The notes under the pieces are model-generated. The model was not told the origin of the DNA. It searched no databases and saw nothing but the letters and a program-made list of their open reading frames with translations. A stretch of DNA of 64,000 bases from a virus. Where the stretch lies: IMG/VR virus record IMGVR_UViG_3300005541_000008, positions 13,361 to 77,360 of that record; one strand, given 5' to 3'. Below, in pieces: positions 1 through 47,476 of this stretch. The position numbers were made by a program, and so were the translations under genes. Positions within the stretch are counted from its first letter, which is position 1, and the number at the start of each line of letters is the position of its first letter.

Positions 1-518
1 GTTTGTAGCTTCGCAGAATGCGGCCACTTCACGACGAACGAAAACTTCTCGTGGGGGTTGAAAGTGAGCCTGATCCCGAGCTTTCTCCCGTTCTTGTGAA
101 TGCACACATAATTCGCGGTGAGCAGGAGTGCCATGAGGGCATAATCACCACCCGGGAAGAGATCAGTCAAGGGCCAAGGACCGTACTCCTTGTCGCCTGC
201 GTAGATAGAGGCGTGACCTCCCCCAACCAGCGCAGCAATATCCGGCACGAGCAAGGCCCTGATAGGGTTTAGGCCCCTGTAAAGATAAACAACCCGAAGA
301 TCGTACACCTGGAGTAGCTTCGTTCCGAGCACTCCACACGTTATGTTCCGTCGCGAGAGATCTTCCTCCCCCGACGCGCCAAACACGAGCTCCTTCGTCT
401 TCCCTGACACGAAAGGGAGCGTGTCGTAGAGGGTGTAGTCGACGTCCTCGGGAACAGATAACACCCGGGTCGTCCTTCGAAGCTCTGCCGTAACCGTCTC
501 TACAACCCCAGATTCCAC
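1..518 (-). CDS. Partial CDS (runs off window start); beta-rich, possibly jelly-roll structural protein, homologous to 49821-50429
   Basis: Not in the ORF track. Translated by hand from GTG at 518 (GAGGTG RBS upstream): MESGVVETV...DYTLYDTLPF...GDKEYGPWPLTDLFPGG...KLGIRLTFNPHEKFSFVVKW; open to position 1. Confidence 0.6.
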   Translation of the reverse strand, partial: MESGVVETVTAELRRTTRVLSVPEDVDYTLYDTLPFVSGKTKELVFGASGEEDLSRRNITCGVLGTKLLQVYDLRVVYLYRGLNPIRALLVPDIAALVGGGHASIYAGDKEYGPWPLTDLFPGGDYALMALLLTANYVCIHKNGRKLGIRLTFNPHEKFSFVVKWPHSAKLQ

Positions 519-633
519 TTCACATCACCTCTACCGCACAGGACAAAACTTCACATTACCCTTACCGTACAGCGCCGCACCGTACCTCACCAATACTTTA
601 CGATACCATACCGACGCGCCACAAGACTAAGCT

Positions 634-2602: not shown

Positions 2603-3724
2603 CTAAAACACCCTACCGGTCACGTAATCGAAATGCCCTATCGTAACCCGTGTGTCAACTCTCGGCTTAACTCCCGTCTCCTCCGCGCACTTTTGCCAGA
2701 ACCACGCGTCCTCTGTATGTACTAAGTACTGTCTTGGTGCGACAAGTTCATGCCCTGTCTTAAACCTCGGCTTCGAAATCTTCTTAAACAACTCCGAGCG
2801 GAAAAGACAGTAATCGAGTCCCGTGCCATCGCACTCGACCAGGTCGCCGTGCTTAAAATCCCTTCCCGGTCTCAGGAGGCCGATATGCCCTGTCTTCCAC
2901 ATTAAGGGTTGCGGGTAGGGCATCTTCATGTGGTAGAGTCCCGCGGCTGTTTCGAGCTTGTGATCGAGAAGGGTGTCGAAGAGCATAGGCATACCCACGG
3001 GAGGCGAAAGCATATCATCGCCGAGGAAGACGAAGTAGGAAGGAAGGGGGTCGAGGGAAAGGAGGTGGTCAATACACCGTTCGCGGGCTTCTGCAACCTC
3101 GAGGCCCTTAACAATCGCCATCTCCCTTATCGACGCGACAGGAAACGCCATTTGGAAAAAGTGGAGGATAAACGCGAGCGACACATAACCCAAAGTCGGG
3201 ACGGCAACTACAATTGTATGCTCCGGGTTTGTAGGAGGCTTCAGCCCTGATAACGGAGGCGGTTCTTCTTCCCCTTCCGCGTCTAAGTCGAGCCAGGAGA
3301 CTTCTTTGAGCGCGGCGGTAAGTTTGCCGTCTTTGAAGGGGAGGTCTTTGAGCATCCCGGGACGGACGATAAGCGCCTTGTGATCGGGACTCACAACACC
3401 CACGACATCATCGGGCTCCTTCATCCACCTCTCCCAAATCCCGAAGGCAATATGCTTCGGTGCCTCGAGAAGAAACACTGCGTCCGGCGCTTTCGGCAAC
3501 ACCCGCGTGTATTGGATCGCATTATTCACGGAGCCCCCAAAGTCTGGGTGAGTAACCCCCCAAATCCCGCGCTCTACATTCGGCGGGAAGCCTATACTCA
3601 ACACCTCACCCGCCCATTCAATCGGTAGGAGTTTCGCGGTTGCAATAAGGGCGAGCATGAGCGAAGGACGTTTGTAAGTGCCCTGTGCGACGATCTTGAA
3701 CGCGTCCCGTGTTAGGGTTGCCAC
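2603..3724 (-). CDS. Glycosyltransferase (GT-A/GT2-like C-terminal domain)
   Basis: IVVAVPT, VAEARE, FVFLGDD (DxD-like), GTGLDYCLF, TEDAWF, VDTRVTIGH. Confidence 0.75.
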   Translation of the reverse strand: MATLTRDAFKIVAQGTYKRPSLMLALIATAKLLPIEWAGEVLSIGFPPNVERGIWGVTHPDFGGSVNNAIQYTRVLPKAPDAVFLLEAPKHIAFGIWERWMKEPDDVVGVVSPDHKALIVRPGMLKDLPFKDGKLTAALKEVSWLDLDAEGEEEPPPLSGLKPPTNPEHTIVVAVPTLGYVSLAFILHFFQMAFPVASIREMAIVKGLEVAEARERCIDHLLSLDPLPSYFVFLGDDMLSPPVGMPMLFDTLLDHKLETAAGLYHMKMPYPQPLMWKTGHIGLLRPGRDFKHGDLVECDGTGLDYCLFRSELFKKISKPRFKTGHELVAPRQYLVHTEDAWFWQKCAEETGVKPRVDTRVTIGHFDYVTGRVF

Positions 3725-4071
3725 TATTGAATCCTCGCCGTTTCGTGCTTAAGATATTGATTCACATACCCCATGTACGCTTTGTACAAATCCCCTGACT
3801 CTACCCATCCATAAGCGATAACCTTATCCTTACGCACAAAGAGGGGGTCGACATAGAGGATACTGAAGAGAGGGCTCCCGACGGGCAAAAACGTCACCTG
3901 CTCTGCCCGCGCTCCTCGTACAGCTCCCGTTTGGGGCACCAAATCCGTGATCATGGTGTTTGTGGCCGCGTCGCGCAACTCAAAACACTCTGGGTCAGAC
4001 GACGGGTCAGCTTCCTTCCCCACGATGAGCTCGTTTTGCCCTATCATAAGCACTATTACCCTTCCCTCCAT
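3724..4071 (-). CDS. Hypothetical protein
   Basis: Coupled ORF in the - strand operon. Confidence 0.6.
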   Translation of the reverse strand: MEGRVIVLMIGQNELIVGKEADPSSDPECFELRDAATNTMITDLVPQTGAVRGARAEQVTFLPVGSPLFSILYVDPLFVRKDKVIAYGWVESGDLYKAYMGYVNQYLKHETARIQ

Positions 4072-4090
4072 GCCGATCCCCTCTCGTGGC

Positions 4091-4354
4091 TTACTGGATG
4101 ATTGAGTGGAAGAACTGTGTCACGAGCGTCCAGGTCTCCGTGTTGCTGCCCCTGTTAAACAGGGTGACGGAGTTCGAGTCCCATTGCGCCGTTAAATACG
4201 CGGCGGGGACGTTTGTCGCGATCGTTGCGGCGGAATATGTTGCAATCCCCCAAACGATATGCGGCAGACGCCCTAGGCCGTGCGCGAAGGTTGTCGAACC
4301 GGAAGACGCTAACGACACAGTCCTCGTGTCGATAAAGGTTCCCAGTAACGTCAC
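4091..4354 (-). CDS. Small beta-rich protein, possibly virion fibre/decoration domain
   Basis: AGGAGG RBS before GTG; TTFAHGLGRLP motif resembles fibre tip domains. Confidence 0.5.
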   Translation of the reverse strand: MTLLGTFIDTRTVSLASSGSTTFAHGLGRLPHIVWGIATYSAATIATNVPAAYLTAQWDSNSVTLFNRGSNTETWTLVTQFFHSIIQ

Positions 4355-6133: not shown

Positions 6134-6153
6134 ATTGAGAATTCCCGGGTTGT

Positions 6154-6356
6154 GTGCCGTGTTGCGGTGCGGTGCGGTGCTCTGCGCGTGGCTCGTGGCT
6201 CGGTAGGTGCGGTGATGTATTGCAACGCTGCCGCGCTGTATACTGCCATATGCAACGTGGCAGCGTTGCGTGTGCAGTGCCTTCTAGCGCCCGCTACGGC
6301 TTTCCGACTCCGGAGTGCGTAGCGTTGCTTTGCGCCACAGGGCGCGGTGCAGCGCC
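6154..6356 (+). repeat. Degenerate GY-NNN pentamer tract resembling the arrays at 25.4-28.6 kb
   Basis: Seven consecutive pentamers at 6154-6188 and one perfect unit G[GTGCG][GTGAT][GTATT][GCAAC][GCTGC] at 6206-6231. Confidence 0.5.
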
Positions 6357-6513
6357 TTGAGGCAGATAGCGCGAGGTTGTGTAGGGCCTCTGCTATCTTG
6401 AAGTCAATTTTAACACAGAAAATTTGAATAGGCAACTCGGAATTTTGAGTTTTGAGCTCTTTTTTCTTTGAGGCCTTGAGTTATGCTCGTTATCCCCTGT
6501 TATGCTCCTTGCT

Positions 6514-6598
6514 TTGACCTCTTATATATCATAATATACATAGTATCTTATGTATTTTATAATAATTTGTATGTATAATAATATATAAGAGAGCAAAA
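6514..6598. other. Very AT-rich tract bounded by an inverted repeat; candidate origin or regulatory element
   Basis: CTCTTATATAT (6519-6529) and ATATATAAGAG (6581-6591) flank an AT-rich core, between divergent genes. Confidence 0.5.
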
Positions 6599-6658
6599 CA
6601 GTAGTCATTTTGTGGCCCTACTGGGGCACAAATCGCGCACGGACCATAGGGAGGAGCC

Positions 6659-24578: not shown

Positions 24579-25433
24579 GTGAAGAGGGGTGATGGGTGGG
24601 TAAGGAAAATGAAGCCGTGTATTCTCACCGTGAAGCGCGGGAGATATTATTGTGAGCAGCATAAGAGGTACTGCGTGCTCGATAAGAACCGGACAACCCC
24701 GACTTACCAGTGTCCTATGAGGGGGGAAGTGATAAAGATCCGCGCGAAGAAGAAGAGGGTGCCGAAGGCGCTCGAAGCCGCGTTTAACAGCGTTTACACG
24801 TTTACGGACACGCTGCGCGGGATCTTGGGTAAGTGCGGCTTCGTGGAGGGGTGTAAGATAGCGCGGATGCTCGTACATTGGAAGGGCGAGGTGGAGCGTC
24901 TCGTGGGGACAGAGGGGCAGCGTCCGGTCGATGTCGCGGCGAATATGCACACTGCAATCGACACGCTTATTGAAGAGGATAAAAGGAGGTCGCCGGATGA
25001 GTATGAGAAGGTGCGGTGCTCGAAGGGGTGCGCGTTCTGTTGCGAGTTGTATGTCACGGTTACTGAGCAGGAGGCTGAACTGCTTGTTGAAGGGGCGAAG
25101 GAGAACGGATGGGAGATTGATCGTGCTCGTCTCGAGAAGCAAATTTCATTTACTGACGGGAAGGCGTGGGCCGCTGCGCCGAGAGAGGAGAGAAGGTGCG
25201 TGTTTTTGGCGGAGAACGGTACGTGTGCGGTGTACGAGTATAGGCCCATGGCGTGTAGGTGCTTGTTTGTGTTTAGTGAGCCGTCGGAGTGTAATGTCGA
25301 AACGAGCAAGCACGTTTGGAGGTTAGCTGTGATCGAGGCTGAGGTAGCGACGACAGCTGCGATCACGGTTCTTGGGACTGGCTCCTTAGCGGAGATGGTC
25401 CGTGCGAAGTTAGGGCAGAGTGGAGTTTTGTAG
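24579..25433 (+). CDS. YkgJ family CxxxCxxCC Zn/Fe-S cluster protein (start uncertain)
   Basis: CSKGCAFCC...CVFL...CAVYEYRPMACR. Confidence 0.85.
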   Translation: MKRGDGWVRKMKPCILTVKRGRYYCEQHKRYCVLDKNRTTPTYQCPMRGEVIKIRAKKKRVPKALEAAFNSVYTFTDTLRGILGKCGFVEGCKIARMLVHWKGEVERLVGTEGQRPVDVAANMHTAIDTLIEEDKRRSPDEYEKVRCSKGCAFCCELYVTVTEQEAELLVEGAKENGWEIDRARLEKQISFTDGKAWAAAPREERRCVFLAENGTCAVYEYRPMACRCLFVFSEPSECNVETSKHVWRLAVIEAEVATTAAITVLGTGSLAEMVRAKLGQSGVL

Positions 25434-26277
25434 AGTAGGGGCGCGGCGAGGTAGCGTTTTGTAGCGGCGTGGTATGGTAATGTATTGCGACGGCGTAGTA
25501 CTGTGGCGTAGGGTAGCGGCGCGCTATTGTGGGGTAATGTAACGGCGAGGTGTGGCACTGTGTTGTAGTGTAAGGCGAAGGCGCAGCATGGTGTAGTATC
25601 GCGATGGCATGGCATAGTACCGTGTTGTAACGGCAAGGTAAAGTATCGCAGGGGATCGCGGTGGCATAGTGCAGTGTTGCAACGGTATTGCGTAGTGCAG
25701 TGTTGTATCGGTAAAGCGCGGCATAGTGCCGGCAAAGTGCAGCGGTGCGTTGGTAAAGTGTGGTATAGTGCCGTCGGGGTATAGCCGTGTGACGTATTGT
25801 GCCGGCAAAGTGCGGTGTGGTAGGGTAAGGGTAAGGTAATGCACTGTATCGTGGAGGCAAAGTGGAGCGTGGTATGGCGCGGGTAAAGTGTAGTTTCGTG
25901 TAGTGGTGTACCGGCATTGCGATGTGTTGTGGAGCATGGGCAAGGTGCAGTATTGTATCGTGTCTGTAGGGTCCGGTAATGTATCGCGTCGGCAAGGTGC
26001 AGCATTGTTCCGTCTAGGTAAAGTGTGGTATCGCGTGGGTATAGTTTGGTAAAGTGTGGGTATAGTTTGGTAAAGTGCGGTAGTGGTAAAGTTCAGCATC
26101 GCGTTGTGGAGTGCTGTTTGGGTGAGGTGCGGCATAGCTCTGTGCAGCGAGGGTGTAGTGCGGTGCAGTAGTGGCAATGCAGTGTGTAGCATCGGCATTG
26201 TCTTGTAGGGCGCTGTAGCGTGGGGGCATTGTCTCGTAGGGTACAGCGGGGGTGTAGCAACGTATAGTAACGGCAAA
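25414..26277 (+). repeat. Non-coding pentamer-phased array (left), units G[GYNNN]n, mostly 26 nt; candidate guide-RNA array
   Basis: Unit starts at 25414, 25440, 25466, 25492, 25518 and 25544 (26-nt spacing); 21- and 31-nt variants occur; no ORF of 60 aa or more on the + strand. Confidence 0.9.
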
Positions 26278-26290
26278 GGAGGAGGAGAGC

Positions 26291-26941
26291 GTGGCAAAAG
26301 CAACGAAGGATAAAGAAGCGAAACCAGTACCGCGTGTGGGCAAGGTCGTTTACGATGTCGATATTACACTGACCGAGCCTATGTTGGGCACAGTGCCTTA
26401 TAACAAGGAGATCTACGCGGAGTTTATCGAGAAGAGCAAGCCCAAGGAGATCTCCGAGGACGAGACGGCGACGGTGCCCGAGAGGGATGAGAAGACGGGG
26501 TGGACAGGGTTTCACGTTGACGAGAATGGCAAGGGCCTCTTCATCTACGATTACATGGTGAAGGGGTTTATGAAGAACGCGGCATCGTCGCTCAAGGAGT
26601 TCGACGACGTCGGGAAGGAGGAGAAGGGGCAGAAGCAACTCATCAACAACCTCGTTTTTGTGTTTCCGCGGCGGATCTTTCTCCATAAGAAGAAGGGTGA
26701 TGGAGTGCTGGAACGTCCGCTGAGAGCGCAGACGATGCAAGGGCCTCGCGTAACACTCGTGCGCTCAGATCAGGTCGCAGAGGGCACCAAGTTCAAGTGC
26801 GAGATTATTGTGCTTGACGGGAATCGAATTACCGAAGCTAAGCTCCGGAAGTGGCTTGACTACGGAGCGTTTATGGGCCTTGGGCAGTTTCGTAATGGAT
26901 CGTATGGGAGATTTACGTACGAGATGGTGAAGCGGCGGTAA
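26291..26941 (+). CDS. Stand-alone RAMP/Cas7-like RNA-binding protein
   Basis: Strong GGAGGAGG RBS; N-terminal strand YDVDITLTEPMLG, YMVKGFMKNAA helix (like RAMP sxKGxxR), C-terminal Gly-rich loop GLGQFRNGSYGRF. Confidence 0.8.
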   Translation: MAKATKDKEAKPVPRVGKVVYDVDITLTEPMLGTVPYNKEIYAEFIEKSKPKEISEDETATVPERDEKTGWTGFHVDENGKGLFIYDYMVKGFMKNAASSLKEFDDVGKEEKGQKQLINNLVFVFPRRIFLHKKKGDGVLERPLRAQTMQGPRVTLVRSDQVAEGTKFKCEIIVLDGNRITEAKLRKWLDYGAFMGLGQFRNGSYGRFTYEMVKRR

Positions 26942-28575
26942 GGCGTAGTAGGGTAAAGTACGGGCACTGTGGAGCGTTGTGAAGTGAAGGTGAAGCAGAG
27001 TGTTGTATCGGCTCAGCAGAGTGCTGTAGTGCGCTGGTAAGGTGAAGTGTAGTAAAGCTTAGGCGCGGTGTTGTACCGTGTGGCGATGGCGGGGGTGAGG
27101 TGTGGCTCAGTAGTGTGTTGGTAAAGTAAAGCGTTGCGATGTGTCGGTAAAGTATTGCGATGCGTGGTAAAGCGGCGGTATGGTGCAGCGCTGTAACGGT
27201 AGGGTCTAGTGATGTAATGCTACGGCAGAGTAATGCGATGTCGTGCGATGGCAGAGCAGAATACCGTGATGTAGAGGTATGGCAAAGCAGGGTGTTGTAG
27301 CGTGCGGGTATGGTGTAGCGCAATGCTGTAGAGTAACGGTGTGGTGGAGCAGGGTAGCGTGGCGGTACGGTGATGCACTGCGGAGTAATGTAGCGGTCTA
27401 GTATAGCTCTGTTACGTACGGTAACGGTACTGCATAGCTTTGTTGCGTAAGGCGTAGGTAATGCGTTGTTCGGTAGGGTAGTGTGGCGGTACTGCGTAGT
27501 GTGGTGGAGTGCCGTGGTGGTACTGCCTTGTTGAGTTAAGTGGAGTTCTGGCAGAGTAAGGCAGAGCGCTGCAGCGGTGTTGCGATGTTCTGTGTGGGTA
27601 TTGTGACGTATAGTGGCGGTAAAGTGGAGTCCTGTAACGGCGCTGCATGGTACCGTATCGCACAGGTATTGTATAGCATGGCCCCGCTTTGGTAGGGTAT
27701 GGCATCGTACGGGTAAAGTATCGCAGAGTCCTGCTTTGGTAAAGTTCAGCATGGTTTGGTACCAGTAGTGTTGGGTGCGGTGATGTGGGGTTTTGGTAAA
27801 GTATGGTGTCGTGCTGCGTGGGTACAGCGATGTAGAGTGACGTATTGGTAGAGTGCTGCAATGTGGCGGTACAGTTTTGTCTTGTGGCGTGTCGGCAAAG
27901 TCCGGCTTTGTGCTGTTGCGGTAACGTATGGTGTCGTACAGCGTTGGTAAAGTGTCGTCGTGTGGCGCGTAGGTAAAGTGCTGCAGTGCGGGGCTTTGGT
28001 AAAGCTTGGTGTTGTGCTGTTGTGGTATAGTAGCGTCGTGTAGCGCACGGGTAAAGTCTGGTGTTGTGCTGCGGCGGTAAAGTGTTGCGCTGTGCTGCGG
28101 CGGTAAAGTGTGGTGGTGTGGCGCGTAGGTAAAGTTTTGTGTTGTTTCGCGGTGGTCTTGTGTTGTGCCGTAATGGTTTTGTACTGGTGCAGTTTGGCGA
28201 TGTGCCGTGTTGGTAAGGCGCGGTCATGTAACGTGTTGGTAAAGTCTAGTGATGCAATGCTTCGGTAAAGCGGTGTGGTGCGTTGGCATTGTGCAGTACT
28301 GTAATGCGCTGGTAAGGCGCGGTCATGTAATGCTTTGCTTTGGTAGCGCAGTGTGCAGTAACGGCAGAGTACTGTAGCGTGCCGTGACGGCAGAGCAGAG
28401 TTAGGTAAGGCGGCGGTAGAGTTAGGTAATGTAACGGTAGAGTAGCGTTGCGTAATGGCGTAGTGGAGTATAGTGATGTAATGGCGTAGCAGAGTAGAGT
28501 TATGTAACGGCGTTGTATAGTAGTGTGTAGCTGTAGGTGTAGTACAGTGAAGTGGCGTGACGGCGGAGCAACGCT
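26927..28575 (+). repeat. Non-coding pentamer-phased array (right), units G[GYNNN]n, mostly 26 nt; candidate guide-RNA array
   Basis: Unit starts at 27946, 27972, 27998, 28024, 28050, 28076, 28102, 28128 and 28154; many units begin GGTAAAGT. Confidence 0.9.
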
Positions 28576-28968
28576 ATGGTCAACGTCGGGATTGTGGGAT
28601 CGAGAGCGAGGACAGCGCCCGAGGATAAGGAGCGCACGAGGGTGGCGCTTCTCGAGCTGCTCGATGAGTTTGGTAAGGAGAACGTTACCATTGTCTCTGG
28701 AGGGTGTCCTGACGGCGCTGATCAGTTTGCCGAGCAGTTTGCCGCGGAGTACGGCTTGCCCAAGATTATCCACCATCCCGATAAGAGTAAGTTAAGGGCG
28801 AAGGCGCGTTGGGCGTATGCGGAGATATACCACGCGCGAAACACATTCGTGGCGCGGGATGCCGAGGTGCTTATTGCCGTGATTAATAAGGGGAAAGAGG
28901 GTGGCACGGAGCACTGCGTGAGAGAGTTCTTGAAGATGGGGAAGAAGAGGTTGGTGATTATCGAATAA
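28576..28968 (+). CDS. SLOG superfamily protein (YspA/DUF2493-like)
   Basis: VGIVGSR, IVSGGCPDGADQFAEQFA, ARNTFV, GGTEH. Confidence 0.85.
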   Translation: MVNVGIVGSRARTAPEDKERTRVALLELLDEFGKENVTIVSGGCPDGADQFAEQFAAEYGLPKIIHHPDKSKLRAKARWAYAEIYHARNTFVARDAEVLIAVINKGKEGGTEHCVREFLKMGKKRLVIIE

Positions 28969-28971
28969 AGG

Positions 28972-29042
28972 TGCGCCGTAGGCTAATGGTAGTCCGCTGG
29001 TCTCATAAGCCAGACGCTCCGGTTCGATTCCGGACGGCGCAA
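28972..29042 (+). tRNA. tRNA with CAT anticodon (Met; Ile2 or initiator not excluded); followed by CCT, not CCA
   Basis: TGCGCCG/CGGCGCA acceptor; CTGGT-CT CAT AA-GCCAG; TCCGG-TTCGATT-CCGGA. Confidence 0.88.
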
Positions 29043-33523: not shown

Positions 33524-34183
33524 ATGAAGGTGGTGAGCCTGCTTAGCGGGGGTTTGGATTCGACGGTGATGCTTTACGCCCTGCGCGCTGCAAGACATAA
33601 GGTGAAGTGCGTGTCGTTTGATTACGGGCAGAGACATAGAGTTGAGTTGGAGAGCGCGCAGAGTATCGCGATTAATGCGGGGGTCGAGTATAGGAGGGTT
33701 GACCTCACAACGATTACGGATCTCCTAAAGGGCTCTTCGCAAACGGATGAGGCGGTAGACGTGCCCGAGGGGCATTACGCGGCTGAGAGCATGAAGCTGA
33801 CGGTGGTGCCGAATCGTAATATGATTATGCTCTCGATTGCCGCAGCTTGGGCAATTAGCACGGGCTATGATGCGGTGGCGTACGCCGCGCATGCCGGGGA
33901 CCATGCTATCTATCCGGATTGTAGGAGGGAGTATGTGAAGGAATTGTCAGGGGCTTTCCTCCTCTGCGACTGGCAGCCAATCGCGCTTTACACCCCCTTT
34001 ATCGACCTCACAAAGGCGGAGATTGTGCAGCTCGGCGTTAAGCTCGACGCGCCGTTTCACCTTACCTTCAGCTGCTATAAGGGGAAGGCGGGTGTGCATT
34101 GTGGCCGCTGCGGAACGTGTACGGAGCGGAAGGAGGCTTTTACACTAGCGGGGGTTACGGACCCTACAACCTACGAGGCGTGA
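33524..34183 (+). CDS. queC: 7-cyano-7-deazaguanine synthase
   Basis: LSGGLDS, FDYGQRH, VPNRN, YPDC, SCY...HCGRCGTC. Confidence 0.96.
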   Translation: MKVVSLLSGGLDSTVMLYALRAARHKVKCVSFDYGQRHRVELESAQSIAINAGVEYRRVDLTTITDLLKGSSQTDEAVDVPEGHYAAESMKLTVVPNRNMIMLSIAAAWAISTGYDAVAYAAHAGDHAIYPDCRREYVKELSGAFLLCDWQPIALYTPFIDLTKAEIVQLGVKLDAPFHLTFSCYKGKAGVHCGRCGTCTERKEAFTLAGVTDPTTYEA

Positions 34184-45456: not shown

Positions 45457-45711
45457 ATGAGGGGAGAAACGAAAGAAGGTGGAATAACTGCTCGCGAGAT
45501 AATGCAAGCAATCGTAACTTGGAAGCCGCCGATATTTCCCCGCGACCTACACACAAAACTCGGTATACCGACGGAGCAGTGTGGTCGCAGGATGCAGGTG
45601 CTTCATCATTGGGGATGCGTAAAATACGCGGAGCCGGGGAAGCGTGGGTGGCGCGGCTATGAGGTCACGGAGTGGGGAAGGAGATATGCAAGAGGAAAAG
45701 AGGAAGTGTAG
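45457..45711 (+). CDS. Small winged-helix-like protein
   Basis: PRDLHTKLGI...RMQVLHHWGCV...YEVTEWG. Confidence 0.6.
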   Translation: MRGETKEGGITAREIMQAIVTWKPPIFPRDLHTKLGIPTEQCGRRMQVLHHWGCVKYAEPGKRGWRGYEVTEWGRRYARGKEEV

Positions 45712-47476
45712 TAAGTGTGGACTCGAAAAGGGCGCCGGAGATTTCTACGTCGGGCCCGGTAATTGGTGTAAAGAGTGCAGAAGAAGCTATGTGCGAGGAC
45801 GCCGGTCTACTCGTAGAGAGCGCGGTAAGCAGCGTCTCTATCCTGAGCAGTGGCCTATTCTTTTACAGCACGTAACAAATAAGGAAGCGCTCCTCCTTTT
45901 TGACTTACTGCAGAGTTGCGGATTACGCCCCACAGAAGCGCTCGCTCTCAGAGCCGAGAGTTTTGATTTTTCTCGAGGTACCGTAACGGTAAAGAATACA
46001 GATCGCGGGGAAGAGAGAACCCTAATCATGCTCGTGCGTGCGGATTTGCTAATCGCTTTGGAGGAAAGGAAGGGGTCCATCGATATAAAGCCCCAGATAG
46101 CCCGTAAGGTTTTTAGAGAGGCAGTAGCTGCCGGAAAGTCTGCTCTCGAGAAAGTCACAGAGGAGTATCCTAACGAGGAAAAGCCGGACACGGATGGTCT
46201 GAGTATGGCGTCGCTCCGCTACACCTTCGGCCTGCGCCTCTACAGCATCGGTGCACGAGAGCCCGAGTTTTCCGCTCTCCTTCGGCTCAGATCACGCGAG
46301 CCAGTGTGGCCTAACTTCGAGCTTATGAACGAACTCCTAAAGAAAAGCTGGGAACAGCAACCAAGACTCTGGACTCCGCGTGAGACTTTGGTGGTTTATA
46401 ATAAGGACGGACTCAAGAAGTGCACACGATGCAGCCAGGAGAAACCTCCGGAACAGTTCACTCCCGGAGTGAGTAGGTGTCTACAATGCGTTAATGAAGT
46501 AGTCCAACCTTATATGGAGAAGCGTAAGAAGGGAGAAGACGGTAAACGCAACAAACGCAAGAAAGCGTGGTATGTGTATCCAGATCGCGCGAAGTGGTCA
46601 CCTAGAGAGAGAATACTCTATCCTGAGCAGTGGCCGAGATTCTGGCGGGCTGTGAAGGAGTATAAGTTCCGGATGATCTTCGATCTTATGCAGAGCTGCG
46701 GACTCCGTGCTAGAGAAGCCCTCTATATCGGACCGAAGGACTTTGACTTCGACCGCGGAGTACTTGCCGTGCGCACGCTAAAACAAGTAGAACGACCAGT
46801 GCACGACGTGTTTGTGCGTCCTGACATACTAAGGAGGCTAAGGAGTATAAAAGTAGACACGGAAGGAAGATACTTCGACTTCGAGTACCCAACCCTATGG
46901 GACGAGTTTAAAAGGGTCGCCAAAGAAGTAGGCCTCGATCCGAAACTCGGAACACACGCGCTACGTCATTGTTGTGCGGTAAGACTAGGGCGGCTTCCTT
47001 CTGCAAACGAGATGCAAGCTAGAGCTCTCCTTCGACACAGTCCAATCAACGTAACACAAGGCTACGCGCAGCCTATAGAAGACCCGCTAAAGCATCAGGA
47101 GATTTGGGATCAGTCTTGGACCGAGCAAGAGTGGATCTGGATAGCTCTCTTAACAGGGGCTCCTGATTGGGATCAGAGTGAACTAGGATGGATAGAAGAA
47201 GATCGCAAACGCGCGACTCGTGACGGATGGATAGATCCCGAGAGGTGGCAGGCCCTCGTAGACTCGTTGGGGAATAAATGTCTCTGTTGCTGGAAGCAGC
47301 CTCCTGATACGACGCTCTACGCAGATCATATAGTTCCGCCGAGCGCCGGAGGGTTGTGGATCGAGTCCAATCTTCAGCCTCTTTGCCGCACCTGCAATAG
47401 CTCGAAGGGTGCAAGGAAGGTAAACTTTCGCAAAAACCCCCAAGCGGATAGGTCATGGTGCGCTCATCCCCGCTAA
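45686..47476 (+). CDS. Tandem Zn-finger/tyrosine-recombinase domains fused to an HNH nuclease
   Basis: Two repeats of CxxC..CxxC + LYPEQWP + QSCGLR; second repeat has R, K, HALR, H and Y; C-terminal DHIVP..GG...NLQPLCRTCNSSKG. Confidence 0.85.
   Translation: MQEEKRKCSKCGLEKGAGDFYVGPGNWCKECRRSYVRGRRSTRRERGKQRLYPEQWPILLQHVTNKEALLLFDLLQSCGLRPTEALALRAESFDFSRGTVTVKNTDRGEERTLIMLVRADLLIALEERKGSIDIKPQIARKVFREAVAAGKSALEKVTEEYPNEEKPDTDGLSMASLRYTFGLRLYSIGAREPEFSALLRLRSREPVWPNFELMNELLKKSWEQQPRLWTPRETLVVYNKDGLKKCTRCSQEKPPEQFTPGVSRCLQCVNEVVQPYMEKRKKGEDGKRNKRKKAWYVYPDRAKWSPRERILYPEQWPRFWRAVKEYKFRMIFDLMQSCGLRAREALYIGPKDFDFDRGVLAVRTLKQVERPVHDVFVRPDILRRLRSIKVDTEGRYFDFEYPTLWDEFKRVAKEVGLDPKLGTHALRHCCAVRLGRLPSANEMQARALLRHSPINVTQGYAQPIEDPLKHQEIWDQSWTEQEWIWIALLTGAPDWDQSELGWIEEDRKRATRDGWIDPERWQALVDSLGNKCLCCWKQPPDTTLYADHIVPPSAGGLWIESNLQPLCRTCNSSKGARKVNFRKNPQADRSWCAHPR

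What the first reader, a model, noticed from the sequence alone, without database searches (positions are those of the whole stretch)
27946..28179. Two-level grammar of the arrays: 5-nt period nested in a 26-nt unit
Seen: units parse as G+[GYNNN]x5, e.g. G[GTAAA][GTGTC][GTCGT][GTGGC][GCGTA] then G[GTAAA][GTGCT][GCAGT][GCGGG][GCTTT]. Starts fall exactly 26 nt apart from 27946 to 28154 and from 25414 to 25544. Variants differ by whole pentamers (21 or 31 nt), and the first triplet is biased to AAA/AAG/ATA. Register survives point changes such as CTATT at 25524. Length/26 gives roughly 33 and 63 units (estimates). Inference: the extra G is punctuation that delimits or processes individual guides of about 12-15 informative bases.
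Basis: partly seen in the sequence, partly recalled or inferred. Interest (0 to 1): 0.85.

Follow-up and report, generated by a model that had tools for sequence, protein, structure and literature searches.

The report
Phage VIPR guide-RNA arrays, punctuated type
The 5-nt/26-nt pattern is real and marks two very large guide-RNA arrays of a phage VIPR system (a Cas7-like protein plus pentamer-repeat RNAs, first described in 2026 preprints), so it is a striking new example of a recently described kind rather than a new kind.

Summary
Two same-strand tracts (25414-26284 and 26942-28575) parse without any phase error into G-Y-R-N-N pentamers. G is 99% and Y 99% at their positions. One extra base, G in 93-96% of cases, falls every 5n+1 nt: 26 nt in 56 units, 21 in 21, 31 in 15, 36 in 2. 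All 99 units are distinct.

The tracts flank a 216-aa gene (26291-26941). Its model has a Cas7/RAMP fold (Z 12.5), and its family aligns by profile with the SUSP1 Vipr family (90.6% probability). About 74 of 84 phage homologues and 44 of 50 bacterial-genome homologues carry a 5-nt periodic tract beside the gene. Most parsed arrays show the 5n+1 grammar.

This matches VIPR systems (bioRxiv 10.64898/2026.04.26.720920): the non-canonical YNNNG repeat and the "staggered array" architecture, which that paper did not test by RNA sequencing.

Particular to this locus are about 100 very short units (4-6 repeats), no conserved accessory gene, and replacement of the two residues that read the first G in SUSP1.

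That the extra G delimits guides is plausible but unproven. No RNA data exist and no targets were found. The scan's first readers had noted the same locus.

The parts
25414..26284 (+). Upstream vrRNA-type array A. About 35 units of G + (G-Y-R-N-N)x4-7. It begins in the last codons of the upstream ORF (24579-25433) and ends at the ribosome-binding site of the vipr-like gene.
   Evidence: Boundaries fall at 25414 ... 26284, with spacings 26x19, 21x8, 31x4, 36x2.
26291..26941 (+). vipr-like gene, 216 aa (P0001). RAMP/Cas7 fold with the C-terminal G-loop GLGQFRNGSYGRF.
   Evidence: - AF2 model pLDDT 88.8.
- Foldseek E 1.6e-9 to type VII Cas7 and Csm3.
- VIA-align Z 12.5, 12.1, 12.0.
- hhalign against the SUSP1 Vipr family: 90.6% probability, E 1.3e-6, 174 columns.
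- No Pfam or PHROG hit.
26942..28575 (+). Downstream vrRNA-type array B, about 64 units. It starts right after the vipr stop codon and ends at the ATG of the next ORF (28576).
   Evidence: Spacings are 26x37, 21x13, 31x11.
27946..28179 (+). The stretch named in the finding. Eight consecutive 26-nt units then a 21-nt unit, most opening with G-GTAAA.
   Evidence: Lag-26 identity is 0.635, z = 10.8. TRF reports periods 26 and 78.
514..627 (-). Solo mini-array with the same grammar on the other strand. It has 22 GYNNN pentamers and 4 extra G (units of 21, 31 and 31 nt). It lies just upstream of minus-strand ORF 3-518, 25 kb from vipr.

Best explanation
This is a phage-borne VIPR locus: a Vipr (ancestral Cas7-like RAMP) gene flanked by two arrays that encode its guide RNAs.

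Shown here:
- the protein fold;
- profile-level homology to the characterised SUSP1 Vipr;
- the pentamer grammar;
- its family-wide linkage to the gene on the gene's sense strand.

Inferred from the published SUSP1 mechanism:
- The arrays are transcribed on the + strand, probably with the flanking genes.
- One Vipr protomer binds each pentamer.
- The invariant G-Y (equivalent to G2-Y3 of the canonical GGY) is flipped into protein pockets.
- The following bases are presented for gapped pairing with double-stranded DNA of competing mobile elements, which is then silenced.

The position equivalent to canonical G1 is free (N) here. This fits the replacement of both SUSP1 G1-reading residues: H17 becomes T34 and D177 becomes Q199, both invariant in this family.

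My inference on the extra G: placed every 4-6 pentamers, it breaks the 5-nt register. A filament therefore cannot continue in phase, which divides the transcript into about 100 distinct short guide modules (21, 26 or 31 nt). Each carries an A-rich pentamer next to the GG as a boundary or handle element. Whether the modules are cut apart is not known.
For: RAMP fold:
- Foldseek E 1.6e-9.
- VIA-align Z 12.5 (rmsd 2.4, 135 aligned) to type VII Cas7, and Z 12.1 and 12.0 to Csm3.

Homology to SUSP1 Vipr:
- hhalign of A1 against A2 gives 90.6% probability, E 1.3e-6, over 174 columns.
- The G-loops align: GLGQFRNGSYGRF with GLGDWRP-RFGRF.
- The identity of the SUSP1 protein is confirmed by PDB entry 36pp, 'SUSP1 Vipr protein'.

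Grammar.

Linkage:
- About 74 of 84 phage loci and 44 of 50 bacterial-genome loci have a 5-nt periodic tract next to the homologue.
- It is nearly always G-rich on the gene's sense strand, and most parsed arrays show 5n+1 spacings.

Filament: a three-copy model gave ipSAE 0.50 against a best control of 0.10.
- Calibration: the mark was reached by 20 of 30 proteins solved as pairs of one chain and by 1 of 23 solved as single chains. The counts hold only roughly, because my own alignment and three copies were used.
- The runs share at least 25% of contacts, and the partner pLDDT is at least 69.
- The contacts are head-to-tail and include G-loop residues 202-204.
- This may reflect memory of solved Cas7 filaments.

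Literature:
- VIPR mechanism, the YNNNG variants and staggered arrays: 10.64898/2026.04.26.720920.
- Roles of H17, D177, W178, R179 and R138: 10.64898/2026.04.26.720927.
- Non-canonical repeat motifs: 10.64898/2026.10.21.760802.
Against: - There is no RNA evidence at all for this locus or for this array type.
- No natural target was found under any of seven decoding rules locally, nor in three exact IMG/VR scans.
- Under the canonical two-base code a 26-nt unit carries only about 18 bits. That is too little to pick a unique site in a bacterial genome, so the simple 'one unit = one guide, canonical code' picture may be incomplete.
- p2 is 85-90% purine, which SUSP1 guides do not show. This is unexplained.
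- No conserved 3' tail and no accessory (vap) gene is present, unlike the characterised type II system.
- I could not see the preprint's figures, so the mapping to its 'staggered' class and to one of its seven types rests on text alone.
Confidence: 0.8

Rival explanations
1. Same VIPR system, but the extra G is not a cleavage or guide boundary. The array acts as a long 'beads-on-a-string' RNA. Neighbouring short filaments would bind together, or the extra base would be bulged so that one filament reads on. Alternatively three bases per pentamer (p2-p4) are read. Specificity would then come from several units, or from a 3-of-5 code.
For: - A single unit has only about 18 bits under the canonical code, but about 27 bits if p4 is read.
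- The G1-pocket residues of SUSP1 are replaced, so p4 may be free to pair.
- The arrays have no internal promoter-like or terminator-like excess.
- 25 nt of vrRNA make one turn of the ternary SUSP1 filament (10.64898/2026.04.26.720927), close to the modal 26-nt unit.
Against: - Unit length varies (21, 26, 31, 36 nt here; up to 46-61 nt in relatives). This argues against a strict helical-phase role.
- A biased boundary motif and an A-rich boundary pentamer look like a signal.
- A contiguous 21-nt target under the 3-base rule was not found in IMG/VR.
- The 85-90% purine at p2 is unlike real codon series, so the array is not a recoded gene.
Confidence: 0.15
2. The arrays are decoys or sponges. 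They would be RNAs (or DNA sites) that soak up or redirect the Vipr proteins of competing phages rather than guide the phage's own protein.
For: Satellite-encoded stand-alone vrRNAs that redirect a phage's VIPR are described (10.64898/2026.10.15.759431). This window also has a solo mini-array far from vipr.
Against: The arrays directly flank the phage's own vipr gene on the same strand. The same arrangement recurs in most homologous loci. All 99 units are different, as expected of guides rather than of a titrating repeat.
Confidence: 0.03
3. A DNA-level element (iterons, curved DNA, a replication or packaging site), or a CRISPR- or TIGR-type array.
For: It is a long non-coding repetitive tract in a phage. 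The 21- and 31-nt units approximate whole numbers of DNA turns.
Against: - The strand asymmetry is strict, with G-Y always on the sense strand of the adjacent gene, also in the minus-strand mini-array.
- The linked protein is an RNA-binding RAMP.
- There is no long conserved repeat alternating with spacers, no 18/36-nt TIGR period, and no Rfam family.
Confidence: 0.02

Closest known systems
VIPR systems (Vipr protein + vrRNA); characterised type II of Escherichia phage SUSP1 (bioRxiv 10.64898/2026.04.26.720920, 10.64898/2026.04.26.720927)
   Same: - Small stand-alone RAMP protein of about 200 aa, homologous by profile comparison.
- Phage-borne.
- Same-strand intergenic tracts of 5-nt repeats with an invariant G-Y and variable neighbours, on both sides of the gene.
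- The G-loop aromatic and Arg residues (F200, R201) correspond to W178 and R179.
   Different: - The repeat is xGY/RN, not GGY/NN.
- The G1-reading residues are replaced.
- Units have 4-6 repeats instead of 9-16.
- There is no conserved 3' tail or pseudoknot.
- Units abut one another, separated by a single G.
- There are about 100 units instead of four.
- No vap gene is present.
- The decoding rule and the targets are unknown.
'Staggered' vrRNA arrays and YNNNG-repeat variants mentioned in the same preprint (fig. S18, Methods), and non-canonical 5-mer clusters such as WGT/NN in 10.64898/2026.10.21.760802
   Same: [quoted passage not shown] It also describes repeats with the first G degenerate. 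Both fit this locus.
   Different: I could not see the figures or data tables, so identity with those classes is inferred. The preprint says this architecture was not confirmed by sRNA-seq. The second paper's non-canonical clusters are said to repeat 10 times, not 4-6.
Cas7 backbone of class 1 CRISPR effectors (type III Csm3/Cmr4, type VII Cas7)
   Same: Best structural matches (Z 10-12.5). Both show RNA-bound filament logic with periodic base flipping by a thumb.
   Different: - 5-nt instead of 6-nt period.
- No repeat-spacer array.
- None of the ORFs I scanned by Pfam/PHROGs was a cas gene; the window was not searched exhaustively.
- No second RAMP or large subunit.

Membership tests
VIPR system | Vipr protein: minimal RAMP (RRM core, G-loop, thumb) homologous to described Vipr proteins | tested here: met
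   Z 12.5 to Cas7. hhalign against the SUSP1 Vipr family gives 90.6% probability, E 1.3e-6, over 174 columns. The single-sequence comparison is weaker (75%, G-loop only).
VIPR system | Tandem pentanucleotide repeats with a conserved motif and hypervariable positions, next to vipr on its strand | tested here: met
   G 99%, Y 99%, and 1.6-2.0 bits at p2-p4. The linkage recurs in about 74 of 84 and 44 of 50 homologous loci.
VIPR system | Canonical GGY/NN repeat | tested here: not met
   The position before G-Y is unbiased (A .29, C .19, G .17-.28, T .24-.35). GGY occurs only at unit starts. The preprint admits YNNNG variants, so this is a variant and not an exclusion.
VIPR system | vrRNAs expressed, and bound by Vipr | not testable with these tools
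   No RNA run holds this DNA.
VIPR system | Gapped (1-nt skip) recognition of DNA targets in competing mobile elements | tested here: inconclusive
   No excess of matches over shuffled guides in 2.1 Mb of local sequence under seven rules. Three exact-match IMG/VR scans found nothing. The units are too short for a powerful search.
VIPR type II (SUSP1-like) architecture | 9-16 repeats followed by a conserved structured 3' tail, with a vap1 gene | tested here: not met
   Units have 4-7 repeats with no tail. Fold z-scores are inconsistent (-3.9 and +0.3). No conserved neighbour gene exists across 85 loci.
CRISPR-Cas | Array of conserved 25-40-nt repeats alternating with spacers | tested here: not met
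   TRF and the parse show only 5-nt and 5n+1 periodicity, with no conserved long repeat.
TIGR-Tas | 18/36-nt array period and a Nop-domain Tas protein | tested here: not met
   There is no 18- or 36-nt autocorrelation peak beyond the 5n+1 series. The linked protein has a RAMP fold.

The most novel reading that the evidence does not exclude
This Vipr clade may use a decoding rule different from the published 2-of-5, one-skip code. Its guide modules hold only 4-6 repeats (about 18 bits under the canonical rule), and the G1 pocket residues are replaced. Two alternatives follow. Either a third base per pentamer (p4) is read, giving a 3-of-5 code. Or several G-punctuated modules on one unprocessed RNA bind cooperatively, a multi-filament way of building specificity from about 100 very short guides.
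Probability: 0.3. Interest if true: 0.7.

Novelty: new member of a known kind. Interest (0 to 1): 0.4.

Why it matters
VIPR is a newly described RNA-guided DNA-recognition system and a proposed ancestor of CRISPR effectors. Only the SUSP1-type (GGY/NN, 9-16 repeats plus tail) has been characterised.

This locus is an extreme example of the untested punctuated architecture:
- about 100 different 21-31-nt modules;
- a relaxed repeat motif, matched by substitutions at the two G1-reading residues;
- no accessory gene.

It poses a concrete question: how can such short modules be specific? It also offers clean material for working out how these arrays are processed and decoded. A cultured bacterium with the same kind of locus, Caldicoprobacter algeriensis TH7C1, was identified for such tests.

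Tried and rejected
Family and annotation searches:
- Rfam gathering scan of the window found only two tRNAs. No hammerhead or other family lies in the arrays.
- Pfam and PHROGs gave nothing for the 216-aa protein.
- phmmer against PDB with the single sequence gave nothing significant. The A1 profile reached Cas7 at E 0.01 and SUSP1 Vipr at E 0.1 only.
- tblastn against GenBank phages found four unannotated gut phages.

Local signals:
- The promoter/terminator consensus scan was no better than shuffles.
- RNA folding gave z = -3.9 for 27946-28179 and +0.34 for 25414-25700. There is no consistent structure.
- No gene other than vipr is conserved within about 4 kb across 85 loci. The YkgJ-like and SLOG-like neighbours here are not shared.

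Target search:
- Seven pairing rules against 2.1 Mb (own contig with arrays masked, plus all loci) matched no better than shuffled pentamers.
- Exact IMG/VR scans of a 12-repeat unit (L057) and a 10-repeat unit (L069) under the 1-skip rule found nothing.
- The same was true for the window's 7-repeat unit under a contiguous 3-base rule.

RNA evidence:
- No RNA holder is listed for this DNA.
- The one DNA run is probably the source sample.

Rejected reading: that the p2-p4 triplets form a recoded gene. It fails on the 85-90% purine at p2 and on the presence of TAA, TAG and TGA triplets.

Full report
**What is there**

The window belongs to a 77,360-nt IMG/VR virus record from a soil metagenome. 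Phage-type genes identified are QueC, family A DNA polymerase, a PD-(D/E)XK nuclease and a primase. GC skew is strong on the coding strand.

Between tRNA-Gln (24345) and tRNA-Met (28972) the + strand carries, in order:
- an ORF with a CxxCxxCC domain (24579-25433);
- a non-coding tract (25414-26284);
- a 216-aa ORF (26291-26941);
- a second non-coding tract (26942-28575);
- a SLOG-like ORF (28576-28968).

**Checking the observation**

Both tracts show autocorrelation peaks at 5, 10, 16, 21, 26, 31, 52 and 78 nt. The ORF between them and two control regions show only the 3-nt coding signal.
- Against 1000 shuffles, lag 26 has z = 14.5 (tract A) and 21.1 (tract B).
- If the pentamers are kept but the extra base is placed at random, lag-26 identity drops from 0.50-0.51 to 0.34. 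The 26-nt level is therefore independent of the 5-nt level.

A Viterbi parse with five phase states, one optional inserted base and a deletion option needs no deletions.
- p0 is G in 99% of pentamers.
- p1 is Y in 99% (T about 68%).
- p2 is purine in 85-90%.
- p3 and p4 are close to 2 bits each.
- The inserted base is G in 93-96% of cases.

Unit lengths are 26 (56 units), 21 (21), 31 (15) and 36 (2), all 5n+1. All 99 units differ from one another.

The boundary has its own logo, Y|G|G-Y-A-n-R. The first pentamer is A-rich, with AAA in 24 of 94 units (p about 1e-10 against other pentamers).

Logan's separate assembly of the same run carries the 4 kb (25000-29000) that span both arrays in one contig without a difference.

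**The linked protein**

The 216-aa protein has no Pfam or PHROG match but belongs to a large family.
- 1132 clusters matched in the protein collection.
- 326 IMG/VR stretches and 63 bacterial-genome stretches encode a relative.

The AlphaFold model built on a 30-sequence alignment is confident (pLDDT 88.8). Its best matches are Cas7-type RAMPs:
- Foldseek E 1.6e-9 to type VII Cas7 and Csm3;
- VIA-align Z 12.5 (rmsd 2.4, 135 residues), 12.1 and 12.0, with 32 chains at Z of 8 or more, nearly all RAMPs.

A three-copy complex model passed its controls with a head-to-tail interface that includes the G-loop.
- The score was ipSAE 0.50 against a best control of 0.10.
- In calibration the mark was reached by 20 of 30 proteins solved as pairs of one chain and by 1 of 23 solved as single chains. 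Those counts hold only roughly here.
- The runs agree in at least 25% of contacts, and the partner pLDDT is at least 69.
- The pass may come from resemblance to solved Cas7 filaments.

**The linkage is a family property**

In about 74 of 84 phage loci a 5-nt periodic tract of 300-1500 nt lies directly beside the homologue, usually downstream. The same holds in 44 of 50 bacterial-genome loci of sufficient length.

When parsed, most of these arrays show G-Y or G pentamers on the gene's sense strand. They carry an extra G at 5n+1 spacings, with modes at 26 and 31 nt and units up to 46-61 nt.

An A-rich pentamer adjoins the extra G across the family. It lies on the 3' side in this window and 17 other arrays, and on the 5' side (GCAAA|G) in 24 arrays.

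No other gene is conserved near vipr.

**What it is**

A literature search found the explanation. VIPR systems are described in bioRxiv 10.64898/2026.04.26.720920, with structures in 10.64898/2026.04.26.720927. In brief:
- A phage-encoded minimal RAMP, Vipr, polymerises on vrRNAs made of GGY/NN pentamers, one protomer per repeat.
- It flips out GGY and presents NN for pairing with DNA in which every third base is skipped.
- This silences competing phages and satellites.

[quoted passage not shown] It states that only the ribozyme-interspersed and single-vrRNA architectures were confirmed by sRNA-seq.

I located the SUSP1 locus in KT454805. Its vrRNAs read GGYNN as published. Its 195-aa protein is the PDB chain named 'SUSP1 Vipr protein'.

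A profile of the SUSP1 family aligns with the profile of this window's family over 174 columns (90.6% probability, E 1.3e-6). Membership of the Vipr family is therefore supported by fold, by profile homology and by the repeat linkage.

**How this locus differs, and a mechanistic reading**

The alignment puts F200 and R201 of this protein on SUSP1 W178 and R179, which hold G2 and Y3. The two residues that read G1 in SUSP1 are replaced: H17 by T34 and D177 by Q199. Both are invariant in this family.

This fits the grammar. G2 and Y3 are kept as p0 and p1, while the G1-equivalent position (p4) is free. By homology the paired bases would be p2 and p3.

The extra G creates a canonical GGY only at the start of each unit and shifts the 5-nt register. 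I infer that it ends one filament and starts the next, so that each 21-31-nt unit is a guide module. It is consistent with the data and with the preprint's text, but no RNA ends are available.

**What remains open**

- Under the canonical rule a 26-nt unit holds about 18 bits (3.56 bits per pentamer). That is far too little for a unique site in a host genome. It would hold about 27 bits if p4 is read as well.
- The purine bias at p2 has no counterpart in SUSP1 guides.
- Target searches gave nothing. Seven rules tested locally matched no better than shuffled pentamers. Three exact IMG/VR scans returned no hit. The units are too short for such searches to have power.
- The decoding rule, and whether modules act alone or together, therefore remain unknown for this architecture.

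**Verdict**

The interpretation (guide arrays with a punctuating G) is largely in line with a system published as preprints in 2026.

The kind is known. This is a new and unusually large member of its least characterised architecture, with about 100 modules in two arrays plus a solo mini-array at 514-627 on the other strand. The scan's first readers had already noted the same locus as a lone RAMP gene between pentamer arrays.

Noticed in passing
window 514-627 (- strand): Solo mini-array with the same grammar: 22 GYNNN pentamers and 4 extra G, giving units of 21, 31 and 31 nt. It lies 25 kb from vipr, directly upstream of minus-strand ORF 3-518, and is oriented with the local transcription direction. 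It resembles the 'solo vrRNAs' of 10.64898/2026.10.15.759431.
   Followed up: partly
window 6149-6188 (+ strand): Eight consecutive GYNNN pentamers (GTTGT GTGCC GTGTT GCGGT GCGGT GCGGT GCTCT GCGCG) in the divergent intergenic region 6134-6658, next to a very AT-rich stretch (6400-6600). This may be a single orphan guide unit or chance. Shuffles give 0-3 positions with runs of six such pentamers per window.
   Followed up: partly
related loci L030, L031, L038, L061, L076, L084 and others: In many relatives the A-rich pentamer (GCAAA) is the last one before the extra G. In this window GTAAA is the first one after it. The boundary element has switched sides within the family.
   Followed up: partly
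L100 (Caldicoprobacter algeriensis TH7C1, NZ_JAHUQD010000006.1), about 3001-4130: A cultured bacterium carries a homologue (39% identity) followed by a roughly 550-nt array of the same punctuated type. Most other genomic relatives are Clostridia MAGs from guts. A few come from Thermodesulfobacteriota, Patescibacteria, WOR-3 and Planctomycetes.
   Followed up: partly
window 27941-28135: TRF also reports a 78-nt period (three units). Units 27946 and 28102, and units 28050 and 28076, are near-copies. This suggests the array grows by duplication of blocks of units followed by point divergence.
   Followed up: no
window 33524-34183 and neighbours: QueC (E 1.9e-64) lies among replication genes. I confirmed only QueC.
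   Followed up: partly
window 45644-47476 (+): A 610-aa protein that combines two tyrosine-recombinase (Phage_integrase) stretches with a C-terminal HNH endonuclease domain.
   Followed up: no
window 24794-26005, 26913-27752, 27412-28227 (- strand): Long open frames (271-403 aa) run antisense through the arrays. They are artefacts of the arrays' composition: few C and A on the + strand means few stop codons on the - strand. A gene caller could mis-annotate them.
   Followed up: no
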